IMG/VR virus record: IMGVR_UViG_3300045988_057161
Span: 1 to 34,571 of that record
DNA: 34,571 bases
Origin: a virus
Direction: 5' to 3' (one strand)
Shown here: piece after piece, positions 1,483 through 25,828 of the stretch
How positions within the stretch are numbered: the first letter of the stretch is position 1
Layout of the letters: the number at the start of each line of letters is the position of its first letter
Position numbers and translations under genes: made by a program
Notes under the pieces: generated by a model
The model's database searches: none
The model's input: only the letters and a program-made list of their open reading frames with translations
Told to the model about the DNA's origin: nothing

Positions 1483-4400
1483 TCAGTTCGAAATGTACAT
1501 TGCCGACAGGCGCATGTTATTAAGCTCGAGCCACCCATTCTCGGACCCCATGTCGGGGGTGCGGATCGCGAAGTGCCAGTACAAGCGGACATTCGTGCGC
1601 AACTGCATAAGCCCCGCGGCCGCCACCTTAACGCCCCTCACACCCGGCTCCAAGGCGACAGAGTTCCCGACAGCCAGATCCCAGTTCCCCGCCGGGTTCA
1701 ACTCCACAAGCAACGTCGTCCAGAGAGACGAATAGTGACTCGCTACCGTCGCCTGGATGGTGACCCAGTACAGGCCGCTATACACCGCCTGCGGAATGTT
1801 GTTCTTCCCGATACGAAAATCTTGGGCATCATACTCGAACCACTCGGTGTCATTCTGCAGCTTGCCCGGCCACCACTCCCAGTAGTTCCGCTGCAGGACT
1901 CGCTGCTGGTTCGTTGTCCCAATGAAGTGGGGCGGCATCACCAATGACTTCAGGGGACGCTGATACTCCAGCTGGTTGGTGCCGGCCGCATACATCTGCC
2001 CGTTAGTGAAACGGAACCACGCGTTAGTCCCTTTGTCGTCAGGCTGCGACTGGCGGAACAGCAGAGAGTTACCCTTCAGGCGGATCGTCGAAGTGTCATA
2101 CGCCGTCCGATACCAAAGCTTCAGGTTCTTGAACGAGACGCTTGTCGGCGAGTACAGCGGGAAGATGCGCAAGTAGTAGCGCCGAGTCCCCGCATCCCCT
2201 TTCTTCCAGTTCGCGATACTGATCGTCTGCCAGCCATCCAGGGTGCGGTTGCGGGACAGCTCAACACCGTCACGCAGCAGGACAATTTCCATCTCGGATG
2301 TCCCTCCCGTGTCAGCGCACCAGAAGTCCAAGGTCGCGTCAAACACGTCCCCGTCGGGCAGATCAACATAAGTCTCCCAGCACGCGTTGTACGTGAAGTC
2401 CAGGCGTGACGTGTACTTGCCGGTCATCTCCGTGTCCGACGCGGACGTGATCGTGCACAGTCCGTCAGCGTCAGAGCCGCCGTAGCGGTTCGCCCACGCT
2501 CGTGTCATAGGGACCGCCTGGGAGTTCCAGTCACCTTCGTCGGCGTCTACCGCTTTGTACGGCAGCCCTTTTTTGTTGAGCGACTCAGCAGACTCGGAGT
2601 ACGCATACATAGATGACCCGACGATTTTGGACCCAAAGATATTGTTGCCCTTCAGGTTACCGATCACCGCATCGCCAGTGATGGTTGCCTTGCCGGCGGT
2701 CAGCATGTCAGTAGTCACGGACGCGAACGCCGCCAATTTCGCCCACAGCTCTTTAGACGCGTAAATCGCATCCGACGTGACGCTGCCCGGAGCGAGTTTT
2801 GTGGCCCCCACAGCCTCCGTCAACGACACAAAAGCCACCTCGGCGCGACAGCCGGCCGTAGCCGACAGCTGGAACATGGTCGACGTGACACCAACATCCG
2901 GCGCCCATGACCACTCCTCGGTTCGCCAGCCGTAATCGTTGGCCTTGTACACGGGCCGGCAGACTTCTTTCGCTGCAGCCGTCGCGACCAGTGTGCCAGA
3001 GTTGCTGGAGTTATACCGATACGTCATCCGCAGCACCCAACGCTTCCCTGCGGGGAACGTGATCTTCTGTGTCACTTGCGCCCACGTCTGCGCCCCGGCC
3101 GGGTTGACGAACCGTACGCCGGTCACCAGGGCACCAGGGGCGCCAGACACGGTAGCCGCCAGCGTGACCGCCCTCGTATCTGACACTGTCCACACGGGCG
3201 ACGGCGAAGACGCAAACAGCGGCTCCCGCACCATGTTCTCCGGGTCTACCGACACCGAATGAGCGGCCACCGCCCCCAGGAACGCCGAGTCCGACGTAAT
3301 CACGTCGATCACCGCCTGCGGCATCTTGGCGCCGCCAGTCACCATGAGCTTCGACACGGACAGGCCGCCAATCTTCGCGTCAGTGATAGACGCGTCCGCG
3401 ATCTGCGCGGACCCAATCGCAGCATCACCGATCTGCGCAGACCCAATCGCCTTGTCGCCGATGAAGTTCGTGCCCGCCTGACTGAGTTGCCACACGGTGC
3501 CGTTCCACACGAACGCCTGACCGAGCTTCCCGTCAGCACCCTGCACCCACCACAGCGACCCGGCGGCCTTACCTTGCCCGTCGGCCGGCAGCGGGGCACG
3601 GGCGGCGATCGTCACTTTCCCGTCCAGAGAGGACATCCTCGCAGTCGCCTGGTCGGCGGCGTTCCGAGCCCCCAGAGCATCGGCGGCAGCCTTGTCCGCC
3701 TTCTCCGCAGCCCCCTGAGCGGCCGCAGCGGCACCGTCAGCCTTCCGCTTCGCAGCCAGAATGTCGTCGGCGGATGCGTCCTGCTTTGCCTTCAATACCG
3801 AGTAGTCGGCCTGTGCTTTCTGTGCGTCAGCCTGCGCGGACTTCGCGGCGGCCTGCGCCCCATCCGCAGTTGCCTTCACGGCGGCGGCGTTAGCGTCGGC
3901 CTTCTTCGCTGCCGTGTCAGCGTCCGCGGCTTTCTGCGCCGCGGTCTGCGCAGCGTCCGCGGCGTCCTGTGCTTTCACGTTCGCCTGGCCGGCGAGCGTC
4001 TGCGCGGCCTGCGCCAACGACTTCGCTTCCTCGGCGAGCGCCACCGCCTTCGCGTTGTCACCGGACTTCTTGACGGCCTCCTCGGCGCGCTTCGCCGTCT
4101 CTGCCGCCTGCTGCGCGGTTGTCTTCGCGGCGTCCGCGACGGAAGCCGCATCCTTCGCTGCCTTGTCGGCGGCCGTGATACGCCCGTCCATGCCCTTCAC
4201 GGAGTCCTGCACAGTGCCAACCGACGCAGCAGCAGCCTCCGCCTTCGCCCTGGCTGTCTGTGCGTCGCGAGCGGCAGCAGCCGCATCCCGCGCGGCGTTG
4301 TCGGCGCGGGTCTTCACCTCCGCGGCGGCCTTCTTCGCATCCACCGCGTCGTTCATGGCGTCCGCGATCTCCCTGCCGGCGGGGCCGAGACGCTCGATCT

Positions 4401-4698
4401 GGGTGCGCTCGTCCCCCGGCTCGTCCTGCCCGTCTGTGATCGCCAGCAGGGTGCCGTCAGGGTGCAGACGGACAGTGACCATAGCCCCCTGCCACGTGTA
4501 CAAGCCGGGCGTCTCGCCAGCCACGTACGTCTCAGGCTTGTCGTACGGCATACCGACGCGCACCCACCCAACGGGCAGGGTCGGGTCGGTTTTCGATGTG
4601 TCAACTACGCGGCCCTTCACCCAGCGGATCGTTGTGTCACGACGCTGGGACGCCTGGCTGCCCTCACGGAGCGCCAGGTACAGGCTGCTATCACTCAT
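1483..4698 (-). CDS. Tail fibre / minor tail protein with a long Ala-rich coiled coil and a C-terminal beta-rich binding region
   Basis: 1071-aa ORF. About 270 aa are Ala/Lys/Asp/Gln heptad-like coiled coil (AAKDAASVADAAKTTAQQAAETAKRAEEAVKK...). This is followed by IGSAQIGDAAIGSAQIADASITDAKIGG repeats typical of actinophage fibres. Position is after Tal. Confidence 0.7.
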   Translation of the reverse strand: MSDSSLYLALREGSQASQRRDTTIRWVKGRVVDTSKTDPTLPVGWVRVGMPYDKPETYVAGETPGLYTWQGAMVTVRLHPDGTLLAITDGQDEPGDERTQIERLGPAGREIADAMNDAVDAKKAAAEVKTRADNAARDAAAAARDAQTARAKAEAAAASVGTVQDSVKGMDGRITAADKAAKDAASVADAAKTTAQQAAETAKRAEEAVKKSGDNAKAVALAEEAKSLAQAAQTLAGQANVKAQDAADAAQTAAQKAADADTAAKKADANAAAVKATADGAQAAAKSAQADAQKAQADYSVLKAKQDASADDILAAKRKADGAAAAAQGAAEKADKAAADALGARNAADQATARMSSLDGKVTIAARAPLPADGQGKAAGSLWWVQGADGKLGQAFVWNGTVWQLSQAGTNFIGDKAIGSAQIGDAAIGSAQIADASITDAKIGGLSVSKLMVTGGAKMPQAVIDVITSDSAFLGAVAAHSVSVDPENMVREPLFASSPSPVWTVSDTRAVTLAATVSGAPGALVTGVRFVNPAGAQTWAQVTQKITFPAGKRWVLRMTYRYNSSNSGTLVATAAAKEVCRPVYKANDYGWRTEEWSWAPDVGVTSTMFQLSATAGCRAEVAFVSLTEAVGATKLAPGSVTSDAIYASKELWAKLAAFASVTTDMLTAGKATITGDAVIGNLKGNNIFGSKIVGSSMYAYSESAESLNKKGLPYKAVDADEGDWNSQAVPMTRAWANRYGGSDADGLCTITSASDTEMTGKYTSRLDFTYNACWETYVDLPDGDVFDATLDFWCADTGGTSEMEIVLLRDGVELSRNRTLDGWQTISIANWKKGDAGTRRYYLRIFPLYSPTSVSFKNLKLWYRTAYDTSTIRLKGNSLLFRQSQPDDKGTNAWFRFTNGQMYAAGTNQLEYQRPLKSLVMPPHFIGTTNQQRVLQRNYWEWWPGKLQNDTEWFEYDAQDFRIGKNNIPQAVYSGLYWVTIQATVASHYSSLWTTLLVELNPAGNWDLAVGNSVALEPGVRGVKVAAAGLMQLRTNVRLYWHFAIRTPDMGSENGWLELNNMRLSAMYISN

Positions 4699-4711: not shown

Positions 4712-6055
4712 CTACAGGTGGCGGCGAGCTTCCCGTCCGATCACCGTCATCGTGCGAGACACGTCAGACAGCGAGCATGAGTAGCTCGAGACAATGATAG
4801 CAATCCACTCGCCCTCCTTGATTTCGAAGGCGAGGAGGTCGCCGATCTCGATGCGAGGGTCGAACGCCATCTCCACTTTCCACGACGGGAGCCGATCGCG
4901 GGCATGGAACGCATCCAAGTTCGCCTGCTCCACCATCTTCGACCACGACTTATCCGACGACAGATCTGTGACCTTCGTTACCCGACCGTAGTGCTTCGGG
5001 TCGTACGGGGCGCCGTAGTACTGCATCCCGATGTGAAAGTCGTACGTGTAGTTCGACTTCCACCCGGTCGTCTTCCCCTTGTCATCGACCTCACGCCCCC
5101 AGCCTGGCCACAGGTTGTGCCGCCACTGCCAAGCCGTGTTCTTCGCGTTCTGGTACAGCTCATCTCTCTGCCCCCACGCGGACGTCGTGGGCTTACTCTC
5201 CCACAAGAGATTCAACGCCTCATCAACCTCGGTGTCATGGTCCGACCGTTTGATCGCGTCCGCCCACGACTTGTTCCCGGACAGCGAGTACGACTTCGTG
5301 CCGTCCCCCTTCGCATTGATCTCGATCATGTTCGGCAGCCGCCCCGACGGATCTTCAGTCCGCTGCGCGTCCACGAGCAGACCGGACGCCAGCGGATACG
5401 TCTCATCTGGGGTCTGCCAATTCTCCCGCCGCGCGTACGCCTCGATCTTCCCGCCGTACCCCATACGCACGTCCGCGCCGCACGAGTCCGCCAGCATAAT
5501 CACTGACGCCAGTCGGTTCGGCGGCATCTGCAACGACGCCATCGGCGCGACGTTCCGCACCTTCGGGTCCACCCAAATGTACGTGTGTTCCGGGACCGGG
5601 TTCAGGCGGCGCATCTCCGACAGCAGAGTCCCTCCCAACCAAGGCGAGTGCGGGAATGGCAGCGGGTTCTCCTCCAGGTCCAACAACATGTCCTTGGCCT
5701 GCACGGTCGCCTCCTCCGGGTTTGCCGGGGAGTCCGTGATCCGGAAATGCCCGAACGGAACATCCCACCCCTCGCCCTCACGAGGGCGGACCTCCAGAAC
5801 AGGGCACAGCTCCTGCCCGTAGTTCGCCAGTGGGTCGGTCGGGCCTTTCGCCGCCAGCTGGCGGGGGGCGTTCAACGTCAGCCGCGCCGGGGCGGTCGGG
5901 TTCGAGTCCGCCTTCGTGCCGAGCTTCCCCCAGTCCAGCTGCACGTTGTACACGGGCAGGTCCCGCCACTCGATCTTCCCGCCGTAGCGGACGTCCACGC
6001 GGACACGCCACCGGGCCGGCTGGCCCATGTCGAACAGGCTAGGGCCGGGCCTCAT
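4712..6055 (-). CDS. Tal-like tail tip / baseplate hub protein (minor tail protein)
   Basis: ORF 4712..6082. The preferred start is ATG 6055, which forms an ATGA overlap with the stop of the upstream Dit gene. The third gene after the tape measure is the canonical Tal position in siphoviruses. Confidence 0.55.
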   Translation of the reverse strand: MRPGPSLFDMGQPARWRVRVDVRYGGKIEWRDLPVYNVQLDWGKLGTKADSNPTAPARLTLNAPRQLAAKGPTDPLANYGQELCPVLEVRPREGEGWDVPFGHFRITDSPANPEEATVQAKDMLLDLEENPLPFPHSPWLGGTLLSEMRRLNPVPEHTYIWVDPKVRNVAPMASLQMPPNRLASVIMLADSCGADVRMGYGGKIEAYARRENWQTPDETYPLASGLLVDAQRTEDPSGRLPNMIEINAKGDGTKSYSLSGNKSWADAIKRSDHDTEVDEALNLLWESKPTTSAWGQRDELYQNAKNTAWQWRHNLWPGWGREVDDKGKTTGWKSNYTYDFHIGMQYYGAPYDPKHYGRVTKVTDLSSDKSWSKMVEQANLDAFHARDRLPSWKVEMAFDPRIEIGDLLAFEIKEGEWIAIIVSSYSCSLSDVSRTMTVIGREARRHL

Positions 6056-7335
6056 GACGGCATCCCTGCCACGTAACGGCACACGTCGTTGTACGTGCGC
6101 GAGGTGACGTCTGGAATGTCCGACAGGGACAGATCCGCGATGCCGACCTCAGCGAACTCGACTGTCGGCAGCGGGTCACCGTCGAGCAGCAGGCACGGCG
6201 CGACCCAGTCCGCGCCGGCCTGGATCACGGTTGTCGCTTTTATGAGCACCCACCCGTTCGCGTCAGGCTTCCCGTACGTCTGGTTGTTCGGATGACTGAA
6301 GCTGCGTTTCGTTGAGTCGGGGCCACGGCCGTTCGACAGCCACAGGCCAATCAACACGTTCGACAGGTCGGTGTCGCCGCCGATACGCCGCACATAGGCA
6401 GACACTTCCACGGTGTGGCCGACCGGCACCTGCCGGAAGCTAGACGTGCCTGCCGTCGGGGTGACAGTGCGAACACCCCCGCCGCGGGTCGGCCGACCGT
6501 GCGGCGACCAGTTCTCAGAAATGTCGCCGCCGAGCAGCTTGTCGTCCTCCGGGTGCGTGGCGCCGCCCCACAGGTAGGCGACATTCCGCTTGATGTCGCC
6601 GGCGGCGAGCTTCGCCTCCCAGTCCAGCCATTCACCCCAGGTGACGCACGGCGCCCACGAACCCATCCGAGTGCCGTACATGCCGAGCCACCGCTCAGTG
6701 TGGCGGACCATCTCCGAGGGGCGTTCTGTCACGGACAGCTCCCACTGGACGGTGCCAGCCAAGCGCGACTCGGTCTGTTGCGCGGTCGCTTTCTGCACGG
6801 CCACCACACGGATCGGGCGGATCGTGCACGACGGAATCCGGCAGGCGTCGCCGTCGTGAGCGACCACGAGGTAGCCGGGCCGCTGCGTGAGCGCGCGGAG
6901 CGTCTCGTAGTCGGCGCGGCCTTTCGTCCGGTAGGTGATCGTGTACGACAGCGGCTCCGCGGACTGCCCCCACCGGTCAAGGGTTCCGGCTGACGTGGAC
7001 AAGGTCGTCAAGCCGGCAGAGAACGACTCTTCGTTTGCCTCAACGATGTGCCCTTTGACGGCAACGTGGCCGGTCTCGTCGGAGATGATGTCCGCCCCGA
7101 TGGACGTGCGCACCGCGGTCGTGTCGGACGCGCCGACCTGCGTGTACGTGGTCTCTTCGCCGATCGGCGCCAGCGGGTCGCTGATGCACTCAGAGTCAGT
7201 AGGATGCCAGATGAGTACCCGGTTGTCGTCCGACTTTACGTACACGGGTATCGCCGCAGCGCCCTCAGGTGACGGGTTCGGCTGCAGGGACAGCATCCCA
7301 GTGTGCTGCGCCGTGAAGGCTTTCATTGTTGCCAT
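6052..7335 (-). CDS. Distal tail protein (Dit) with C-terminal extension
   Basis: 427-aa ORF starting 5 nt after the tape measure stop. The call rests on synteny (TMP-Dit-Tal). It is longer than a minimal Dit, so an evolved Dit with an added domain is likely. Confidence 0.55.
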   Translation of the reverse strand: MATMKAFTAQHTGMLSLQPNPSPEGAAAIPVYVKSDDNRVLIWHPTDSECISDPLAPIGEETTYTQVGASDTTAVRTSIGADIISDETGHVAVKGHIVEANEESFSAGLTTLSTSAGTLDRWGQSAEPLSYTITYRTKGRADYETLRALTQRPGYLVVAHDGDACRIPSCTIRPIRVVAVQKATAQQTESRLAGTVQWELSVTERPSEMVRHTERWLGMYGTRMGSWAPCVTWGEWLDWEAKLAAGDIKRNVAYLWGGATHPEDDKLLGGDISENWSPHGRPTRGGGVRTVTPTAGTSSFRQVPVGHTVEVSAYVRRIGGDTDLSNVLIGLWLSNGRGPDSTKRSFSHPNNQTYGKPDANGWVLIKATTVIQAGADWVAPCLLLDGDPLPTVEFAEVGIADLSLSDIPDVTSRTYNDVCRYVAGMPS

Positions 7336-20463: not shown

Positions 20464-21857
20464 TTCCCAGCGGCGGGGCGCTCAACGTCGGCGGGCTTCA
20501 CAGCGGTACGGATGTCGTTGACGGCACCGTAGATCGCGCCCGCGGACTTGACGCCCTCCTGGCCGGGAGTCAGCGCGTCGAGGACCTTGTCGACCGCAGC
20601 ATGGACCGCCTTAGTCTCCTCGTAGGTCGCCTTCGCATACCAGTTCATGTCGCCGGCGAAGTGGTCGCCAGCCTGCCCGGACCTGAACAGGTCCCTGATC
20701 TCCCTGAGAAGGTCAACACCTTCAGCCATTTCCCATGCCTCCTGTCCTGCGCCGTTGGGGCGCCCGTAGTTGTACCACGACCTGCACCGGTCGCTGAAGG
20801 GTTCGCCGTACGCCTCGTAGGCGCCGTAAGCGCTACCCGAATTGTAGCGGGACCCGACACGCTTCAGGTCCTCGTAGGAGTCGCCTTCCGCGCTGATGAG
20901 GTCCCTGATGATGCCGCAGCCGACCTCGGCGGACTTCTCAGGGTCCCACCAGGCCCGGTCGGGGTCGTTGAAGAAGTAGCCGGGGTACGTGACCTGCAAC
21001 GGCCCGACGCCGTTGGACGTGGCGCCGGCGCTGATCTGCGCGTAGAAGTCCCGGAACTTCTCTTCGGTGACTTCTCCGCCGCCGCAGTAGGCGCCGCCAG
21101 CGTCGTGGCCGAAGATATTCGCCCCGTACTCGCCGGTTTCCATCCACAGGGCCGCGAGCGCCGCCCACCAAGGGCAGCCGACGTTGTCCGCGGCGCGGAG
21201 GACGGCCTGCTGCACGTACGACAGTTCGTACCCGTCGTGGCTGGCGCGGGACTGCTCCTGCGTCGGAGGGACCGGAGCCGCGGTGCCCCCGAGGTAACGG
21301 AGGCAGTGCGTCCACCGGGCTGTCTGCGTGTACAGGTGCCCTTCGTAGGACACGCACCGGCACTCGGAGCCGGTCTGGTCGCCGATGTACCCGTCGATTG
21401 ATCCGTCTTCAGCGATCCACGCCTCGGACAGGCCGTTCTTGGTGACCATGGCGACGTGGCCGGCGCCCCCTGAGGCGGCCTCGGAGAGGATCAGGTCGCC
21501 GAGCTGAAGTCCGCCGTCCGGGTAGAGGCTGCTGTCGTCCCAGTGGACGTCCTCGAAACCTCGACTGGCGGCATAGCCGCGGATGTTGCCTGTGTACGTG
21601 TCCCTGGGGAACATGACGCTGGAGTCCCAGGGCTCCCCGTCGGCGTGGAACGCGTAGTTCCAGGCAGCTGCGACACCGGCGGAGCAGTCCATGTTGGCGT
21701 CCGCGGTGAGCCAGCCGAGGTCGGTGGACCGTTCGTACGCCATCCATCGGTCGGGCTGCGAGTATCCGACGCTGTAGTCACCTCCTTGGGGTTTCCCGGG
21801 GCCGCAGGTGGCCCAGTACTCCATCTGGGCTGCGGCGGTTGCGGGTGATGCTGACAT
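20460..21857 (-). CDS. Endolysin with an N-terminal NlpC/P60- or CHAP-like cysteine peptidase and a central lytic-transglycosylase/lysozyme-like domain
   Basis: ORF 20460..21905, trimmed to ATG 21857, which is preceded by ACAGGAGGGCAG. DCSAGV...GAGHVAMV suggest a Cys/His peptidase. WMETG...GVGPLQVT...SRYNSGS resemble the SLT motifs E-S/T, GLMQ and AYNxG. The roughly 90-aa C-terminal region is of unknown function. Confidence 0.75.
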   Translation of the reverse strand: MSASPATAAAQMEYWATCGPGKPQGGDYSVGYSQPDRWMAYERSTDLGWLTADANMDCSAGVAAAWNYAFHADGEPWDSSVMFPRDTYTGNIRGYAASRGFEDVHWDDSSLYPDGGLQLGDLILSEAASGGAGHVAMVTKNGLSEAWIAEDGSIDGYIGDQTGSECRCVSYEGHLYTQTARWTHCLRYLGGTAAPVPPTQEQSRASHDGYELSYVQQAVLRAADNVGCPWWAALAALWMETGEYGANIFGHDAGGAYCGGGEVTEEKFRDFYAQISAGATSNGVGPLQVTYPGYFFNDPDRAWWDPEKSAEVGCGIIRDLISAEGDSYEDLKRVGSRYNSGSAYGAYEAYGEPFSDRCRSWYNYGRPNGAGQEAWEMAEGVDLLREIRDLFRSGQAGDHFAGDMNWYAKATYEETKAVHAAVDKVLDALTPGQEGVKSAGAIYGAVNDIRTAVKPADVERPAAGK

Positions 21858-22062
21858 CTGCCCTCCTGTCTGTCGCGCCCCGTCGGGTCGGGGCGGTTGG
21901 TCCAAGGGTAACGGGCCGGCTTCGTGGCGGCGCTCACTCGAAAACCTGGTGAATCGGGCATCGCGTCGAGTGATTGCTACCTCCGGCGGTCCTTTCCGGG
22001 GGTGGGGGGGGAGGCGGTGCCAGGGTGTTTTTTGGTTTTCGGTCGCGGATTTTTTTTCGTTT

Positions 22063-22506
22063 TCATGTGAAGCGTTCTCGCAGGCTTCGGTTTCGTGTTT
22101 CGTTTGGTTTTTCTTCGTTTTGTTTCGTTTTGTTTTTGTTTTGTGTTTGTTGTTTGTTTGGGTGCGGCGCGCGCTTGTGTTGTGTCATTGCGTGGCGTGC
22201 GGCGGCGCGTGCGAGGGTCTCGGCGGTGGTCTTGGCGTGGTGGCAGGCGTGGGACAGGGGTTGCAGGTTGTCTGTTGAATGGTTGTCTCCGGGCGTGATG
22301 TGGTCGACGTCTGTGGCGCGGCCGTTGCACCCGGCGGCGTGCCACCTCCCCGTGGGGGTGGTGGTGCCCCGGGCTGTCTGGGTGGGTGTGCCCATCGGGT
22401 GGGGGAGCCCTGCGCATTTGTTGTTGTTTCTTTGTAGGACTTGTTGTCTGAGTTTGTTCCAGTTGTTTGGGAGTCGTTGTCTGCGTGTGCTGGTGGTCCA
22501 TGCCAT
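22063..22506 (-). CDS. HNH endonuclease with a low-complexity Thr/Pro/Gln/Asn/Lys-rich insert and tail
   Basis: 147-aa ORF: RRQRLPNNWNKLRQQVLQRNNNKC...CNGRATDVDHITPGDNHSTDNLQPLSHACHHAKT. This is the classic phage HNH pattern (DH...N...CH.KT). The last roughly 35 aa are encoded by a (CAAA)n-like tract. Confidence 0.75.
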   Translation of the reverse strand: MAWTTSTRRQRLPNNWNKLRQQVLQRNNNKCAGLPHPMGTPTQTARGTTTPTGRWHAAGCNGRATDVDHITPGDNHSTDNLQPLSHACHHAKTTAETLARAAARHAMTQHKRAPHPNKQQTQNKNKTKQNEEKPNETRNRSLRERFT

Positions 22507-22521
22507 GCGCCCATCCTAGGT

Positions 22522-22586
22522 GGGGTGGTGGGGGTGGGGGGTGGTGGGGTGGTTCCTGTCTGGGTGGGGGGTGTTTGGGTTGTGGG
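22522..22586 (+). repeat. Two canonical G-quadruplex motifs on the plus strand (C-rich on the late-gene sense strand)
   Basis: GGGGTGGTGGGGGTGGGGGGTGGTGGGG (22522-22549) and GGGTGGGGGGTGTTTGGGTTGTGGG (22562-22586). Both fit G3+N1-7 x4. They lie immediately upstream of the HNH start. Confidence 0.6.
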
Positions 22587-22646
22587 TTTCTGGTGTTTGA
22601 GTTTCCCCCGGGTCGGGACTCTGGTCCTACCCTGTGCGCTGGGTCA

Positions 22647-22811
22647 TGTGGATAACCCTGTGGGTAACCTTGTGGATTGGTTGTGGATAACCTGTGGGTA
22701 AGTGGTTGTGCATACAAGTAATTCACTGCACCCCTCGAGTTATCCACAGGTGGTTGTGGGTTGTGGATTGTTGGGGTTGCAACGGAAGGTAGGGTTATCC
22801 ACTTATCCACA
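22647..22811. repeat. Cluster of DnaA-box-like / iteron 9-13-mers (TTATCCACA(GGTG) family) in both orientations
   Basis: Perfect TGTGGATAA at 22647 and 22682. Perfect TTATCCACA at 22740 and 22803. One-mismatch copies at 22659 and 22693 (TGTGGGTAA) and 22795 (TTATCCACT). Two-mismatch copies at 22671 and 22762 (TGTGGATTG). The extended unit ACCTGTGGRTAA recurs. Confidence 0.8.
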
Positions 22812-22955
22812 GGTGCCTACTATCTACTACCTAGATATCTCTGGTTTGGTGTCATAGCCCCAACGGGGCGCGTGCGAGGGAATGAGGCGCCTGGTCCTTC
22901 TGGGGACAAGGTCCCTGTCTGTGTTGGGTGGTGCGGTGAGGGCATGGAGATAGAC

Positions 22956-22991
22956 GGATCCTCCGGCACTCGTGTTGGTGCCGGAGGATCC
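22956..22991 (-). terminator. Intrinsic-terminator-like hairpin ending the leftward early (replication) operon
   Basis: Perfect 14-bp arms ggatcctccggcac (22956-22969) and gtgccggaggatcc (22978-22991) with an 8-nt loop. It begins 8 nt after the stop of the 70-aa membrane protein gene. Confidence 0.6.
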
Positions 22992-22998
22992 TGGGCTG

Positions 22999-23211
22999 TC
23001 AGCGGCGGTGGAAGCCTGGATGGGCGCCGTGCTTACGGGCCCAGCGGATGGGGCGCAGTGAGGCGAGGCAGACGGCGGAGACGACCGTCCAGAGGAGGCT
23101 GGTGGAGATGTCGAGTTCCCCGGCGGTGAAGCCGGCATACCAGAGGAGTGCGGCGTGGATGGCGGAGAGGATGCCGGCGGCGAGCGCGACGGCGTAGAGG
23201 GTGCGGGTCAT
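22999..23211 (-). CDS. Small membrane protein (2 TM), unknown function
   Basis: 70-aa ORF with SD aagggag 6 nt upstream. Hydrophobic segments are LYAVALAAGILSAIHAALLWYAGF and LLWTVVSAVCLASL. Confidence 0.6.
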   Translation of the reverse strand: MTRTLYAVALAAGILSAIHAALLWYAGFTAGELDISTSLLWTVVSAVCLASLRPIRWARKHGAHPGFHRR

Positions 23212-23359
23212 TGCAGTCTCCCTTATCGGTTGGTGTCAGTGTTCTTATAGTACCCAGCCCCTCGTCTGCTCGGAGGCCGTGTAAGCGGCGCTGCCGGCCT
23301 AACGGCCCCCCCCTGCACCCGAGTACCGGGCGAGGGGGGAACGTTCGCCTATGCGCCTG

Positions 23360-24613
23360 TCAGCGGCCTTGTGGGGTGGGTTCTGCGAGGATGGCCATGG
23401 CGGGTTGGCGGATGAGCTCGGTGCTGCCTGTCGCTCCGTGTCGGTTCTTGGCTACGGACACGGCGAGTCGCGTCTTGTCGGGTATGCCGTTGCGGACGGG
23501 CAGGGACAGCAGGGTGACGGTGTCCGCGTCCTGCTCGATGCTGCCTGACTCGCGGAGGTCGGCGAGCTTCGGGGCGAGGTCGTCTCTCATCTCGGAGGCG
23601 CGGGACAGCTGCGACAGGGCGAACACAGGAACGTCCAGTCCGAGGGCCAGCTCCTTCAACGCGCGGGATTGGTAGGTGACCATCTCCCTGAGTGAGGAGC
23701 CGGGCACGCCACGAGACGGGGCGAGGAGTTGCATGTGGTCGACAACGACGGCGCCGAGCTTCTTCTTGTGGTGGAGGGTGCGCGCGAGGGCGGCGACCTG
23801 TTCGACGGACATGCCGGCTTTGTCGCTGATGTGGATGGGCAGGGCTGCGATCTGGGCGGCGGCGCGGTTGAGGGTGTCGGCGATGTCGGCGGGTGCTGCC
23901 TCTGCCCTGGTCGTGTACTTCAGGGGGGCGCCTGTGGCTTGGGACAGGAGCCTGGGGAGCAGCTCGCGGGCCGGCATCTCCATGGACGTGTAGAGGACGT
24001 GCCGGCCGCCGCGGGCGGCGCATGCGGTGAGGTACAGGCCGTAGAGGGTTTTGCCGACTGCGGGTCGGGCGCCGATGACGTGGAGTCCTCCGTCGCGGTG
24101 CAGGCCGACGATGTCATTGACTGCGGCCCAGGGGGTGTGGACGCCGGTCGCTTTCTTGGCTGTGTACCACTGGTCGATGAGGGTCGGCATGGAGATGGTG
24201 TCTCCGTCGGGGGCGGTGCTGCCGATGCGGGACTGTGCCCAGGAGGCGACTTCGGCTGCGGTGGAGTCTCCTTGGAGGAGCTGTTCGGCGCGTGTGAGCA
24301 CGTCGTGGACGTCGCGTTTGGCGGAGGCTTCCTGAACGAGACGGGCGTAGCGGTCCGCGTCTGCTGGGTTCAGGGACGCGTGCACGCAGTCGAGGATGTC
24401 TTTCCCGGTGGCCGGCTTGCGGACCTCGGCGAGAACGGAAGCGGGGGTGGGGGTTCTGCCCATTGCCCAGTGGTCGCGGATGATTCCCCAGATGGCGGCG
24501 TACCTGGTGTTGGCGATCATGTCTGGCGTCGTTGACCAGGTGGTATCTGTTTGTGCTTCGTTGCCTGCGAGGGCGGAGCCGATGAGGCATTGTTCAATGG
24601 TGGTGGTTTCCAT
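23360..24613 (-). CDS. dnaB: Replicative DNA helicase (DnaB family)
   Basis: 417-aa ORF. It has the N-terminal IEQCLIGSAL motif, Walker A GARPAVGKT, SMEMPAREL, Walker B VVVDHMQLL and LRESGSIEQDADTV. Confidence 0.9.
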   Translation of the reverse strand: METTTIEQCLIGSALAGNEAQTDTTWSTTPDMIANTRYAAIWGIIRDHWAMGRTPTPASVLAEVRKPATGKDILDCVHASLNPADADRYARLVQEASAKRDVHDVLTRAEQLLQGDSTAAEVASWAQSRIGSTAPDGDTISMPTLIDQWYTAKKATGVHTPWAAVNDIVGLHRDGGLHVIGARPAVGKTLYGLYLTACAARGGRHVLYTSMEMPARELLPRLLSQATGAPLKYTTRAEAAPADIADTLNRAAAQIAALPIHISDKAGMSVEQVAALARTLHHKKKLGAVVVDHMQLLAPSRGVPGSSLREMVTYQSRALKELALGLDVPVFALSQLSRASEMRDDLAPKLADLRESGSIEQDADTVTLLSLPVRNGIPDKTRLAVSVAKNRHGATGSTELIRQPAMAILAEPTPQGR

Positions 24614-24634: not shown

Positions 24635-25540
24635 TCAGTTGTTGGTTGCGTTGTTCCACATGGCTGCGATGTTGGCCATGAGTTCGGGGGTGGCTTCCGC
24701 GTTGATGAGTTCGGGGTTGTCGACGCGCGGGTTGCCGAGGAGGTTGTCGGTGTCGGCTGGCGTGTGGGGCTGGTAGTTCTCCCAGTCGTGGTCTTCGAGC
24801 CAGCGGCGTGCGGTGCGGATGTATCGGGCGGGTGTTTCCCGTCGGCGGCATTGGTCTGCGTAGGCGCGTGCGCCGTCGGTGATTTCCCGGGCTGTGGCGT
24901 GCTGTCGGGCTTTCTGCCAGTCCCGGATGGTGGCTTTGCTGCCCGGGTAGACCTCGTTGAATTCGGCTCGTTCCTGGGCTTCCTGCGATTTCCGGGCCTG
25001 CTTCTTGGCTGCGGCCTTGTCGCGTTTGGCTCGCGCGCGGGCGATGTCGTCTTCGCGGACTCGGTCGGCGACCGGGGTGAGCGGCTTGTATGTGCGCTGT
25101 TCAGTGACTCGGTCGTGGCTGACGGCGCCTGCGGCTACGAGGCCGTCGTGGTTGAGGAGGGCGTCGAGGTGAATGGCGTATTCGTTGGCGCTGCCCGGGG
25201 CCTGGCGGCTTTCGATGATGCCGAGTTCGGCGAGGTGGTCGAGTGCCCGGGTGACCGTGGCACGCGACTGTCCGGAGCGTTGTTCGATGGCGGCCTTCGA
25301 CGGGTAGATATGTTCGCAGTTCCACCAGGTGCAGAGTGCGGTGAGGGTGGCGATGTCTCCGCCTGTGAGGTCGTGACGCTTCCAGTAGGAGCGTATGTTG
25401 ATGGCGCCGATGATCTGAGTGTTGTAGTACTCCGTGTTTGTCCTCGCGTTGTGTTGGTTGTTGTGTTCGCCGGCTTGTTGGTTGGGGCCCGGGGGGCTTC
25501 GTGGCTCTACCCGGGCCCCGCGCCGGCCTCCGGGGAACAC
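24635..25540 (-). CDS. Replication initiator / helicase-loader-like protein with a winged-HTH (DnaD / phage O-like). The start is uncertain.
   Basis: The recognisable part of ORF 24635..25879 is TALCTWWNCEHIYPSKAAIEQRSGQSRATVTRALDHLAELGIIESRQ (wHTH) plus a basic/helical C-terminus. It is directly upstream of dnaB. The full 414-aa ORF would run through the operator/promoter region. GTG 25540 or TTG 25570 are the nearest in-frame starts, and neither has a good SD. Confidence 0.55.
   Translation of the reverse strand: MFPGGRRGARVEPRSPPGPNQQAGEHNNQHNARTNTEYYNTQIIGAINIRSYWKRHDLTGGDIATLTALCTWWNCEHIYPSKAAIEQRSGQSRATVTRALDHLAELGIIESRQAPGSANEYAIHLDALLNHDGLVAAGAVSHDRVTEQRTYKPLTPVADRVREDDIARARAKRDKAAAKKQARKSQEAQERAEFNEVYPGSKATIRDWQKARQHATAREITDGARAYADQCRRRETPARYIRTARRWLEDHDWENYQPHTPADTDNLLGNPRVDNPELINAEATPELMANIAAMWNNATNN
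25484..25519. other. 10-bp perfect palindromic-arm hairpin inside the 5' region of the initiator ORF
   Basis: ggggcccggg (25484-25493) and cccgggcccc (25510-25519) with a 16-nt loop. Confidence 0.5.
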
Positions 25541-25725
25541 AACACAAAAACCGTGAGGCCAGCTGATCAACCAACGGGTTAACCCTATCAGGTGCGGGCT
25601 GGCTGGTTGGCGCCTGGTCCACACCTGTCCGCCCCCTGGCGCCGGCGGTGTCGGGCTGGCGTGGACCTGGCCGGCCGCCGGCAGCGGGGGGTAGGGGGGT
25701 GTTTTTTCTCTTGGATAAGGTTTGG

Positions 25726-25768
25726 GGCTCAAAATGAGCCGCCCCCGTCGGCTCAAAATGAGCCGCCC
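25726..25768. promoter_or_regulatory. Two copies of a 19-bp repeat, each containing the 15-bp palindrome GGCTCAAAATGAGCC. Putative operator pair.
   Basis: ggctcaaaatgagccgccc at 25726-25744 and 25750-25768, with 24 bp centre-to-centre. They sit in the divergent intergenic region between the leftward replication genes and the rightward early genes. Confidence 0.6.
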
Positions 25769-25799: not shown

Positions 25800-25828
25800 T
25801 TGACCGGCGTGTCGACACGCCGTAGATT
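25800..25828 (+). promoter_or_regulatory. Rightward early promoter: TTGACC - 17 nt - TAGATT, with an 18-bp palindrome filling the spacer
   Basis: TTGACC (25800-25805), spacer ggcgtgtcgacacgccg (17 nt), TAGATT (25823-25828). cggcgtgtcgacacgccg (25805-25822) is a perfect palindrome. The SD gaggagga and ATG 25869 follow about 40 nt downstream. Confidence 0.55.

What the first reader, a model, noticed from the sequence alone, without database searches (positions are those of the whole stretch)
22640..22850. Dense cluster of DnaA-box-like 9-mers (four perfect TTATCCACA) with adjacent AT-rich tracts: candidate phage origin or host-DnaA-recruiting/titrating element
Nine copies of a TGTGGATAA/TTATCCACA-type motif lie within about 165 bp of non-coding DNA, between the terminator of the replication operon and the HNH/late genes.
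- Perfect copies: 22647, 22682 (one orientation); 22740, 22803 (the other).
- One-mismatch copies: 22659, 22693, 22795.
- Two-mismatch copies: 22671, 22762.

Many extend to a 12-13-nt unit, ACCTGTGGRTAA. The boxes flank two unusually AT-rich stretches for this genome: tgcatacaagtaattcactgca (about 22709-22730) and cctactatctactacctagatatctc (about 22816-22841).

TTATCCACA is the textbook DnaA-box consensus, and boxes next to an AT-rich unwinding element are the standard oriC/plasmid-ori architecture. P1 oriR, pSC101 and F/RK2 all use DnaA boxes. This phage encodes its own wHTH initiator and DnaB about 1-3 kb away. A separate DnaA-box array would therefore imply one of three things: dual initiator dependence, sequestration of host DnaA, or iterons for a phage protein that happen to mimic the DnaA box.
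Basis: partly seen in the sequence, partly recalled or inferred. Interest (0 to 1): 0.75.

Follow-up and report, generated by a model that had tools for sequence, protein, structure and literature searches.

The report
Phage-borne mimic of bacterial oriC
An uncultured human-mouth phage carries a conserved ~300-base cassette built like a bacterial chromosome replication origin (DnaA boxes beside the easiest-to-melt DNA in its genome), which probably lets it start replication with the host's own initiator protein, since complete relatives keep the cassette but encode no initiator or helicase.

Summary
Seven of the eight TTATCCACA matches (≤1 mismatch) in the 34.5-kb window lie in 22647-22811; shuffled sequence gives a mean of 1.9.

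The boxes are the core of a discrete ~300-bp cassette. It is conserved in more than 30 related oral-metagenome phage genomes of three lineages, while its flanks diverge.

Its anatomy copies bacterial oriC:
- a tandem box pair, a 5-nt GC spacer and two GAT "DnaA-trios" 13 nt from the upstream box, as in B. subtilis, S. coelicolor and B. bifidum;
- the least stable duplex in the genome, right next to them;
- a distal box exactly 55 bp away;
- an opposed five-box array with 11-12-bp spacing.

The boxes are not iterons of the phage's O-like initiator. That protein's recognition helix covaries with dyad repeats 3 kb away (25726-25768). A complete circular relative keeps the cassette but has no initiator or DnaB. 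One relative has both genes but no cassette.

The likely genome end (cos, about 21975-21990) is at least 650 bp away, which argues against a packaging role.

Best reading: a host-DnaA-dependent origin, separate from the phage's own module. This is inferred, not shown. The strict rule of three in-phase trios is not met, and the host is unknown.

The parts
22647..22701 (-). Array of five co-oriented DnaA boxes with start-to-start spacing of 12, 12, 11 and 11 nt. Read on the - strand: TTACCCACA, TTATCCACA, CAATCCACA, TTACCCACA, TTATCCACA. Proposed role: the region where DnaA oligomerises.
   Evidence: In 25 genomes the constraint falls on the 9-mer itself: T2 .99, C5 .98, C6 1.0, A7 .98, C8 1.0, A9 .96. 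Positions 1, 3 and 4 are degenerate. Spacing of 11-12 nt predominates in 34 distinct cassettes. Lineage 2 has TTTTCCACA, TTATCCACA x3 and TTGTCCACA here.
22709..22730 (.). Conserved AT-rich spacer TGCATACAAGTAATTCACTGCA between the opposed box sets. It contains an imperfect dyad, which is perfect in lineage 2 (ACTTGTA-GG-TACAAGT). Its role is unknown; it could be a second easily melted tract or an architectural-protein site.
   Evidence: It is among the three least stable duplexes in the cassette-only genomes.
22740..22748 (+). Distal DnaA box C (TTATCCACA; TTGTCCACA in several relatives). It has the same orientation as the tandem pair.
   Evidence: Its start lies exactly 55 nt (5 x 11) upstream of the pair in 31 of 32 distinct cassettes, although the sequence in between is unalignable between lineages.
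22795..22811 (+). Tandem DnaA-box pair: TTATCCAC|TTATCCACA in the window, and TTATCCACA|TATCCACA as the family consensus.
   Evidence: The 9+8 abutting arrangement is the same as B. subtilis boxes #6/#7, TTATCCACA|AATCCACA.
22812..22816 (+). GC-rich spacer GGTGC (GCCCC or GGCCC in other lineages).
   Evidence: It places the first trio 13 nt after the upstream box, the value listed for S. coelicolor, B. bifidum and C. glutamicum.
22817..22834 (+). DnaA-trio-like element CTACTA-T-CTACTA-C-CTAG; the bottom strand reads 3'-GAT GAT A GAT GAT G GATC-5'. Only the first two trios are in phase.
   Evidence: It is nearly invariant in lineages 1 and 2. CTACTA-N3-ACTACC is conserved in register in lineage 3. 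CTACTA also follows the same pair and spacer in unrelated phage contigs L340 and L342, although those were retrieved with a pattern that required this core.
22817..22857 (.). Proposed DNA-unwinding element. It includes the palindrome AGATATCT at 22833-22840.
   Evidence: It is the least stable 30-bp (-34.5 kcal/mol; genome mean -47.9, sd 3.2) and 40-bp duplex of the 34.5-kb genome.
22858..22868 (.). GC hairpin CCCCAACGGGG that bounds the unstable tract.
   Evidence: The position is conserved and the stem changes are compensatory: GCCCCgttGGGGC in lineage 1, GTCCCGtaCGGGAC in lineage 2 and GGGGCttcGCCCC in lineage 3.
22956..22991 (-). Perfect 14-bp stem-loop after the small membrane-protein gene. 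It is the likely terminator of the initiator-DnaB operon and marks the upstream limit of the cassette in this lineage.
   Evidence: (inverted repeat I3), with compensatory changes in relatives.
25726..25768 (.). Not part of the cassette. These are two 19-nt dyad repeats (GGGCGGCTCATTTTGAGCC), the phage initiator's own binding sites. Next to them is an invariant AT-rich block at 25690-25722.
   Evidence: The repeat sequence covaries with the wHTH recognition-helix segment of the initiator across five specificity types. The repeats, the AT block, the initiator gene and the DnaB gene are all absent together in the cassette-only genomes.

Best explanation
Window 22640-22850 is the core of a self-contained cis-acting cassette of about 300 bp (roughly 22590-22880). 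The cassette mimics a bacterial chromosomal origin.

Proposed mechanism:
1. Host DnaA binds the tandem box pair (22795-22811), the phased distal box (22740) and the opposed five-box array (22647-22701).
2. From the pair it oligomerises across the GC spacer onto the GAT GAT trios.
3. It melts the adjacent tract (22817-22857), the least stable duplex in the genome, which is clamped by a GC hairpin.
4. A replicative helicase is then loaded: the host's, or the phage DnaB where one is encoded.

The cassette works independently of the phage's O-like wHTH initiator. That protein has its own covarying sites and AT-rich block at 25690-25768. The family therefore carries two separable initiation modules, and natural genomes exist that lack one or the other.

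Shown here: the anatomy, the conservation, the independence from the initiator and the distance from the likely genome end.
Inferred: that the binding protein is DnaA, and that binding leads to replication initiation.
For: 1. Enrichment and exclusivity. Seven of the eight box matches in the genome are in this block.

2. Specificity. In an alignment-based matrix from 25 genomes, constraint covers exactly the 9-mer. Variants include TTGTCCACA, TTTTCCACA, TTATTCACA and TTATACACA. These fit TT(A/T)TNCACA and the mioC-type boxes. The extended unit GTTATCCACAG is identical to E. coli oriC R1 and R4.

3. Match to the basal unwinding system (BUS), checked against the literature:
- B. subtilis: TTATCCACA|AATCCACA|GGCC|CTACTATTAC...
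- S. coelicolor: ...|GGCC|CTACTACTACTG
- This phage family: TTATCCACA|TATCCACA|GGTGC|CTACTA...
- The distance from the upstream box to the first trio is 13 nt.

4. The least stable duplex of the genome starts at the first trio.

5. The distal box is exactly 55 bp away in 31 of 32 cassettes despite unconserved sequence in between. A helically phased distal box is part of the B. subtilis system.

6. The cassette is conserved as a unit in three lineages whose flanks are unalignable and whose initiators are 33-36% identical or absent.

7. IMGVR_UViG_3300045988_122463 is a circular 32.8-kb assembly that is syntenic throughout. It has the cassette but no initiator or DnaB. Three further contigs show the same over the parts retrieved.

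8. The initiator's wHTH covaries with other repeats 3 kb away.

9. The same core, together with 8-10 boxes, occurs in unrelated 53-54% GC phage contigs.
Against: - The published BUS rule needs at least three in-phase trios with a central A. Here only two are in phase; the third is 3'-AGA-5'.
- One otherwise syntenic relative, IMGVR_UViG_3300009963_000020, was fully reconstructed and lacks the cassette anywhere. Its two leftover boxes have decayed. So the cassette is not essential when initiator and DnaB are present.
- Position 4 of the box is C in 28% of cases, which is not part of published consensus sequences.
- DnaA-box arrays also occur in phages thought not to use DnaA for replication, namely the T5 iss region and the Berlinvirus genome ends. 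Arrays alone therefore do not prove an origin.
- The host and its DnaA-box preference are unknown.
- There are no binding, unwinding or marker-frequency data.
- Small proteins of unknown function in the cassette-only genomes could include an unrecognised initiator.
Confidence: 0.55

Rival explanations
1. The cassette binds host DnaA but is not an origin. It could act as a DnaA sink that shuts down host chromosome initiation as phage copies accumulate. It could be a DnaA roadblock or timer between the terminated early operon and the HNH/late genes. Or it could anchor the first-entering DNA end to membrane-associated DnaA, as proposed for the T5 injection-stop region.
For: - T5-like phages conserve eight DnaA boxes in the first-step-transfer region, far from their origins.
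- Berlinvirus phages carry nine CTGTGGATAAC repeats at the genome end.
- The cassette lies only about 650-870 bp from the probable right genome end. By analogy with lambda (my own knowledge), that end would enter the cell first.
- The cassette sits between a terminator and the late genes.
- The cassette is dispensable in one relative.
Against: - A sink or roadblock needs boxes only. It does not explain the exact geometry of pair, GC spacer and GAT GAT at 13 nt, the adjoining least stable duplex with its GC clamp, or their conservation in three lineages and in unrelated phages.
- In the cassette-only genomes no other origin-like element or initiator was found.
- The Berlinvirus arrays are not followed by a spacer-plus-CTACTA element.
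Confidence: 0.25
2. The repeats are bound by some other conserved protein, either a host factor or an unrecognised small phage protein, whose site merely resembles the DnaA box.
For: - C is tolerated at box position 4.
- The host is unknown.
- Several small conserved ORFs have no family assignment.
Against: - The motif equals the universal DnaA consensus, including its flanks.
- Its pattern of degeneracy fits DnaA boxes.
- The motif is the same in phages of 65% and 53-54% GC that share no detectable proteins. That points to a universally conserved binder.
Confidence: 0.1
3. The repeats are a packaging signal: terminase small-subunit binding sites of a cos or pac site.
For: - The cassette lies upstream of the HNH, TerS and TerL genes.
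- Many contigs of relatives end about 100-200 bp away, in the C-rich tract at 22500-22570.
Against: - The contig ends in the C-rich tract are scattered over about 50 nt, overlap from both sides and lie in a G-quadruplex, low-complexity tract. That fits assembly or sequencing drop-out.
- A tighter hot spot lies in normal-complexity DNA at 21967-21998, between HNH and the lysin-like gene. It is shared by two diverged subgroups and shows adaptor and fold-back artefacts. It is the better cos candidate and is at least 650 bp from the boxes.
- The cassette-less genome has TerS and TerL 89-95% identical to the window's.
- The distance from cassette to TerL differs by about 1.2 kb between subgroups.
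Confidence: 0.04
4. The repeats are iterons of the phage-encoded wHTH (O-like) initiator at 24635-25438.
For: - The initiator and DnaB genes lie 0.5-2.8 kb away in most genomes.
- Plasmid and phage Rep origins are commonly arrays of direct repeats.
Against: - The initiator's recognition-helix segment covaries with the dyad repeats at 25726-25768 across five specificity types, while the boxes stay the same.
- The cassette is conserved with initiators of 33-36% identity and in complete genomes with no initiator.
Confidence: 0.03

Closest known systems
Bacterial oriC basal unwinding system (BUS): B. subtilis incC boxes #6/#7 plus DnaA-trios, with predicted equivalents in S. coelicolor and B. bifidum (PMC8287927, PMC6669920, PMC10721633)
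   Same: - A co-oriented tandem box pair in 9+8 abutting form.
- A GC-rich spacer.
- The first trios are GAT GAT, 13 nt after the upstream box.
- An unstable AT-rich tract follows.
- There is a helically phased distal box and further box arrays.
   Different: - It sits in a phage genome, not next to dnaA/dnaN.
- Only two trios are in phase, against a minimum of three in the published rule and six in B. subtilis.
- The unstable tract is short (about 40 bp) and clamped by a hairpin.
- Function is untested.
Rep-dependent plasmid or phage origins with auxiliary DnaA boxes (P1 oriR, pSC101, F, RK2); this comparison rests on my own knowledge
   Same: A mobile element's origin that uses host DnaA boxes. 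In P1 oriR the DnaA boxes flank the core on both sides.
   Different: Those origins are built around iterons of the element's own Rep protein. Here the element's initiator binds elsewhere, and the cassette persists without any initiator gene.
DnaA-box set in the injection-stop (iss) region of T5-like phages (bioRxiv 10.1101/866236)
   Same: A conserved, precisely arranged set of about eight DnaA boxes in non-coding phage DNA, near the end that enters the cell first. A role for host DnaA is proposed but not shown.
   Different: The T5 boxes sit in pairs inside inverted repeats of the terminal repeat, far from the mapped origins, and no trio or unwinding module is described. Here there is a BUS-like unwinding module, and there are cassette-only genomes.
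E. coli datA and DARS loci (PMC5835720)
   Same: Clusters of DnaA boxes outside oriC that titrate or remodel DnaA.
   Different: Those loci are chromosomal regulatory sites with no adjacent unwinding module. The phage cassette has one.
Arrays of CTGTGGATAAC repeats at the genome ends of Berlinvirus T7-like phages (P483, Shigella phage A7); unannotated in the records
   Same: The same extended 11-mer unit and the same 11-12-nt periodicity. These arrays were the only BLAST hits of the cassette in 50,697 phage records.
   Different: All nine copies are co-oriented and lie at the terminal-repeat region, with no pair/spacer/CTACTA element. T7-type replication does not need DnaA (my own knowledge).

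Membership tests
oriC-type origin / basal unwinding system (BUS) | A DnaA box with at most 2 mismatches to TTATCCACA next to the unwinding site | tested here: met
   A perfect box at 22803-22811 is followed by the trio-like element. The definition is from PMC8287927.
oriC-type origin / basal unwinding system (BUS) | A co-oriented tandem box pair in which the upstream box is the better match | tested here: met
   The family consensus is TTATCCACA|TATCCACA. In the window itself the upstream box has 1 mismatch and the downstream box is perfect.
oriC-type origin / basal unwinding system (BUS) | A spacer of at most 16 bp from box to first trio (peak 10-13 bp), with a GC-rich segment of about 4 bp | tested here: met
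   The distance from the upstream box is 13 nt. The spacer is GGTGC, GCCCC or GGCCC.
oriC-type origin / basal unwinding system (BUS) | At least three consecutive in-phase DnaA-trios (3'-NAN-5', consensus 3'-GAT-5') | tested here: not met
   The bottom strand reads GAT GAT AGA TGA TGG, so only two trios are in phase. Further GAT GAT units follow after 1-nt shifts. The first two trios are conserved in all lineages.
oriC-type origin / basal unwinding system (BUS) | An intrinsically unstable, AT-rich unwinding element flanking the trios | tested here: met
   22817-22857 is the least stable 30- and 40-bp duplex in the genome. The same holds in the cassette-only genomes, apart from a coding A-tract.
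oriC-type origin / basal unwinding system (BUS) | Additional distal DnaA box or boxes acting with helical phasing | tested here: met
   Box C lies at -55 nt in 31 of 32 cassettes, and the array has 11-12-nt spacing. The requirement is described in PMC6669920.
oriC-type origin / basal unwinding system (BUS) | DnaA binds, oligomerises and unwinds; replication starts there | not testable with these tools
   This needs host identification, purified DnaA, and footprinting, strand-separation and replication assays.
Rep/iteron origin with auxiliary DnaA boxes (P1 oriR type) | Iterons of the element's own initiator lie inside the origin, and the origin depends on that initiator | tested here: not met
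   The initiator's covarying sites are at 25726-25768. The cassette is retained in complete genomes that have no initiator.
cos/pac packaging site (TerS-binding repeats) | Repeats lie next to the genome terminus and are inherited together with the terminase | tested here: not met
   The probable terminus is at 21967-21998, at least 650 bp away (inferred from contig ends). The cassette-less genome has TerS and TerL that are 89-95% identical.
T5-type iss DnaA-box set / terminal DnaA-box arrays | Conserved DnaA boxes in the DNA that enters the cell first, unrelated to the origin | tested here: inconclusive
   The cassette is about 650-870 bp from the probable right end. Entry polarity and origin function are not known.
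Lambda-type origin (for the second element at 25690-25768, not the finding itself) | Dyad-symmetric iterons bound by an O-like wHTH initiator, next to an AT-rich tract | tested here: inconclusive
   The repeats covary with the wHTH and lie next to an AT-rich block. However, there are only two repeats and they sit in a divergent promoter region, so they could equally be autoregulatory operators.

The most novel reading that the evidence does not exclude
Some tailed phages carry a complete mimic of the host chromosomal origin: box arrays plus a BUS-type unwinding module. This would let them replicate with host DnaA alone. It would explain complete genomes that encode no initiator or helicase, and the element would be an exchangeable cassette found in at least two unrelated phage groups (65% GC oral phages and 53-54% GC siphovirus-like contigs). 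By soaking up DnaA, the same cassette could also switch off host initiation as phage copy number rises.
Probability: 0.4. Interest if true: 0.8.

Novelty: new variant of a known kind. Interest (0 to 1): 0.7.

Why it matters
Phage origins are mostly unmapped. Textbook phage and plasmid origins use DnaA boxes only as helpers for an element-encoded initiator.

A phage-borne oriC mimic would:
- show that the bacterial unwinding module can be carried on a mobile element;
- explain how small phages with no replication-initiation genes start DNA synthesis;
- provide a sequence signature for finding phage origins in metagenomes (tandem boxes, a GC spacer, CTACTA at 13 nt, and an unstable tract);
- offer a host clue and a natural test set for the minimal number of DnaA-trios;
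- raise the possibility that phages manipulate host DnaA availability.

The family is abundant in human oral metagenomes. Natural variants with both modules, the cassette only, or the initiator only already exist, so the question can be tested directly.

Tried and rejected
- Close relatives among isolated phages: none. Megablast against INPHARED found nothing. The initiator has no tblastn hit there. TerL is at most 47% identical, to Microbacterium and Bifidobacterium phages.
- Host identification failed:
  - there is no close prophage among 185,579 species genomes;
  - homologues of the initiator and the lysin-like protein are all unnamed metagenomic or "Caudoviricetes sp." proteins;
  - the only context available is human oral metagenomes.
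- No sigma-70-like promoter was found in 21800-23400, so a late-promoter reading could not be supported.
- Rfam found no RNA family anywhere in the window.
- The cassette has no plasmid match.
- DnaB-linked box clusters are not a general feature. Of 139 other phage or bacterial DnaB loci, only one had at least 3 boxes within 300 bp.
- I first read the contig ends in the C-rich tract as a possible cos site. I rejected this in favour of assembly drop-out, because the ends are scattered and overlap.
- No iterons were found inside the initiator gene. The only candidate is a weak 2 x 15-nt repeat at 24678 and 24705.
- A second hairpin around 22615-22627 looked conserved in some lineages but not in most lineage-1 relatives, so it is not claimed.
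- Literature searches found no description of DnaA-trios or oriC-like origins in phages. This covers the held open-access library only.
Full report
**Observation**

TTATCCACA with at most 1 mismatch occurs 8 times in the 34,571-base window, and 7 of those are at 22647-22811. Dinucleotide-preserving shuffles give a mean of 1.92 and a maximum of 6, and none of 100 reached 8.

On the - strand, five boxes run head to tail with 12, 12, 11 and 11-nt spacing (22701 down to 22647). Three boxes lie in the opposite orientation: one at 22740 and an overlapping pair at 22795 and 22803. The two AT-rich tracts are present.

**Context**

The window is a circular assembly with a 55-nt terminal overlap. It is a 65% GC siphovirus-like genome from human oral metagenomes. 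It has no close relative among isolated phages and no close prophage.

Reading along the - strand, the order of features is:
- O-like wHTH initiator, ending at 24635;
- DnaB (24613-23360);
- a 70-aa membrane protein (23211-22999);
- a perfect 14-bp hairpin (22991-22956);
- the box cluster;
- a C-rich tract;
- HNH (22506-22063);
- a lysin-like gene, a holin-like gene, TerS, TerL and the structural genes.

**A conserved, bounded cassette**

Nineteen IMG/VR relatives with 88-92% DnaB identity were found, and further ones in metagenomes. All that span the region keep the cluster except one.

In a subgroup with only 68% TerL identity the flanks cannot be aligned, yet a block of about 300 bp is retained almost base for base. 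Read on the - strand, this block contains:
- a GC hairpin with compensatory stem changes;
- CTATGACACCAA;
- AGATATCTAGGTAGTAGATAGTAG;
- the box pair;
- about 45 unconserved nt;
- box C;
- the AT-rich spacer;
- the five-box array.

A third lineage has an initiator 33-36% identical and a DnaB 46-47% identical. It has the same layout in the same place.

Box C starts exactly 55 nt (5 x 11) from the pair in 31 of 32 distinct cassettes, although the sequence in between is not conserved. Spacing within the array is 11-12 nt.

**What the boxes look like to a binding protein**

An alignment-based matrix of 7 boxes across 25 genomes shows constraint on exactly the 9-mer: T2 .99, C5 .98, C6 1.0, A7 .98, C8 1.0 and A9 .96. 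Position 1 (A .19), position 3 (G .12, T .05) and position 4 (C .28) are degenerate, and the flanks are weaker.

The variants seen are TTGTCCACA, TTTTCCACA, TTATTCACA and TTATACACA. These fit TT(A/T)TNCACA and the mioC-type boxes. C at position 4 does not fit.

**Resemblance to the oriC unwinding module, checked against the papers**

The basal unwinding system (BUS) is defined as follows (PMC8287927):
- a DnaA box, often a tandem pair with the upstream site the better match;
- a spacer of at most 16 bp (peak 10-13) that includes about 4 GC-rich nt;
- at least three in-phase trios 3'-NAN-5', with consensus 3'-GAT-5'.

The supplement of that paper gives these sequences:

| Organism | Upstream box | Second box | Spacer | Trios (top strand) | Box-to-trio distance |
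|---|---|---|---|---|---|
| B. subtilis | TTATCCACA | AATCCACA | GGCC | CTACTATTACTTCTACTA | 12 |
| S. coelicolor | TTATCCACG | GTATCCACA | GGCC | CTACTACTACTG | 13 |
| B. bifidum | TTATCCACA | CTATCCACA | GGGC | TTATTACTA | 13 |
| Phage family consensus | TTATCCACA | TATCCACA | GGTGC | CTACTA-T-CTACTA-C-CTAG | 13 |

So the pair, the GC spacer, the 13-nt distance and two consensus trios are all present. The rule of at least three in-phase trios is not met, because the third trio reads 3'-AGA-5'.

In lineage 3 the element is CTACTA-N3-ACTACC in the same register.

The tract that begins at the first trio (22817-22857) is the least stable 30- and 40-bp duplex in the whole genome, +4.2 sd from the mean. 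It ends at the conserved GC hairpin.

A helically phased distal box is also part of the B. subtilis system (PMC6669920).

**The boxes are not the phage initiator's sites**

Two 19-nt dyad repeats lie upstream of the initiator gene at 25726-25768, next to an invariant AT-rich block. They differ between relatives but always occur as a matched pair.

Their sequence covaries with the recognition-helix segment of the initiator's HTH_36 domain:

| Dyad repeat type | Initiator helix segment |
|---|---|
| GGCTCAwwwwTGAGCC | PSK..SRA[TSA][VT]TRAL |
| GGTATCAAArTGAGAC | SRPTVARAL |
| GGTGCCAAA.TGGCAC | SRRTVARAI |
| GGTGC.AAAG..GC.C | SRRTVA[NS]SL |
| GGAACrAmGTTCC | TDRGVR[KE]A |

The DnaA boxes stay the same across all five types.

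**Natural presence and absence**

- Cassette only. IMGVR_UViG_3300045988_122463 was reconstructed from two loci. It is a circular assembly (55-nt overlap) of 32.8 kb, syntenic with the window throughout. It has the cassette but no initiator, no DnaB, no dyad repeats and no AT block. Its few unique ORFs match no replication family. Three more contigs show the same over the parts retrieved.
- Initiator only. IMGVR_UViG_3300009963_000020 (33,447 bp, fully reconstructed) has the initiator and DnaB but a deletion of about 290 bp that removes the cassette. It has no box cluster anywhere, and the two leftover boxes have decayed.

The family therefore has two separable modules, and each can be absent. 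In the cassette-only genomes, the least stable tracts outside a coding A-run are both inside the cassette. In the cassette-less genome, the least stable 30-mer is the AT block beside the dyad repeats.

**Packaging**

Contig ends of relatives cluster at two places.

- The C-rich tract at 22500-22570. It forms two G-quadruplex motifs on the + strand. The ends here are scattered over about 50 nt, overlap from both sides and sometimes carry adaptor read-through. I read this as sequencing or assembly drop-out.
- Positions 21967-21998, in normal-complexity DNA between HNH and the lysin-like gene. This hot spot is tighter, is shared by two diverged subgroups and shows fold-back and adaptor artefacts. 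I take it as the probable cos site.

The probable cos site puts HNH at the right genome end, as in HK97-type phages (my own knowledge). It also puts the boxes at least 650 bp from the terminus. Together with the cassette-less genome, whose terminase is nearly identical, this makes a TerS-binding role unlikely.

**Other phages**

- BLAST of the cassette against 50,697 phage records hit only arrays of CTGTGGATAAC repeats at the ends of Berlinvirus genomes and in some Klebsiella podophages.
- T5-like phages conserve eight DnaA boxes in their injection-stop region.
- These cases show that box arrays alone do not prove an origin, and they keep a non-origin DnaA-binding role open.
- In the other direction, a pattern search for the pair/spacer/CTACTA core found it, with 8-10 further boxes, in two contigs of 53-54% GC. 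These share no detectable protein with the window. One has siphovirus tail genes and the other an integrase. The module is therefore not confined to this family.

**Verdict**

The best explanation is a host-DnaA-dependent, oriC-like origin cassette, separate from the phage's own initiator module (confidence about 0.55).

DnaA binding without origin function is the main rival (about 0.25). Initiator iterons and a packaging site are largely excluded.

Membership in the BUS family fails one defining test, the number of in-phase trios, so I describe the element as working like a BUS rather than being a proven member.

I found no description of such an element in phages in the held literature. I rate it a new variant of a known kind.

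Noticed in passing
window 22520-22590: The + strand carries two canonical G-quadruplex motifs (for example GGGGTGGTGGGGGTGGGGGGTGGTGGGG); the - strand is C-rich. About 24 contig ends of relatives fall here, scattered over about 50 nt, and some carry Nextera adaptor read-through. The tract varies in length between relatives.
   Followed up: partly
window 21967-21998: A tight hot spot of contig starts and ends in normal-complexity DNA (- strand: CGGAGGTAGCAATCACTCGACGCGATGCCCG), between the HNH stop and the lysin-like start. It appears in two diverged subgroups and shows fold-back and adaptor artefacts. It is probably the physical genome end (cos).
   Followed up: partly
window 25690-25768: Two 19-nt dyad repeats (GGGCGGCTCATTTTGAGCC) lie beside an invariant AT-rich block (CAAACCTTATCCAAGAGAAAAAACA in the window). 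The repeats are hypervariable between relatives but always paired, and they covary with the initiator's recognition helix. They are a candidate lambda-like origin or an autoregulatory operator.
   Followed up: yes
window 25484-25519: The hairpin GGGGCCCGGG...CCCGGGCCCC lies just upstream of the initiator's ribosome-binding site. Three relatives have compensatory changes in the stem. It is a possible attenuator or other structured leader.
   Followed up: no
window 25433-25435: Relatives have the initiator's ATG start codon here, but the window reads ACG. The gene may use a non-canonical or upstream start, or this copy may be impaired.
   Followed up: no
window 25805-25822: A perfect 18-bp palindrome, CGGCGTGTCGACACGCCG, is invariant in all relatives. 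It lies in the divergent early control region. A conserved GTGAC-N4-GTCAC motif is nearby.
   Followed up: no
L332 (KP090453.1 37328-37381) and L333 (MK685668.1 1-150): The Berlinvirus T7-like phages P483 and Shigella phage A7 carry about nine CTGTGGATAAC (DnaA-box) repeats with 11-12-nt spacing at the genome end. The repeats are unannotated in both records.
   Followed up: partly
L340 about 4090-4480 and L342 about 6050-6500: Two unrelated phage contigs of 53-54% GC carry 8-10 DnaA boxes plus the same core TTATCCACATATCCACAG-SNNN-CTACTA, followed by AT-rich DNA. They are IMGVR_UViG_3300042991_000658 (with an integrase) and IMGVR_UViG_3300010413_002326 (with siphovirus tail genes). No DnaA, DnaN, DnaB or initiator was recognised nearby.
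   Followed up: partly
window 22063-22160: The 3' end of the HNH gene encodes a low-complexity K/N/Q/T-rich tail from an A-rich tract on the - strand. This is one of the least stable duplex regions in the genome and another place where assemblies break.
   Followed up: no
whole window: No integrase, repressor, ParA or ParB was recognised. The recognised early genes are RecT, an exonuclease, RusA, SSB and a nucleotide-kinase-like protein. Lifestyle (lytic or plasmid-like prophage) is undetermined.
   Followed up: partly
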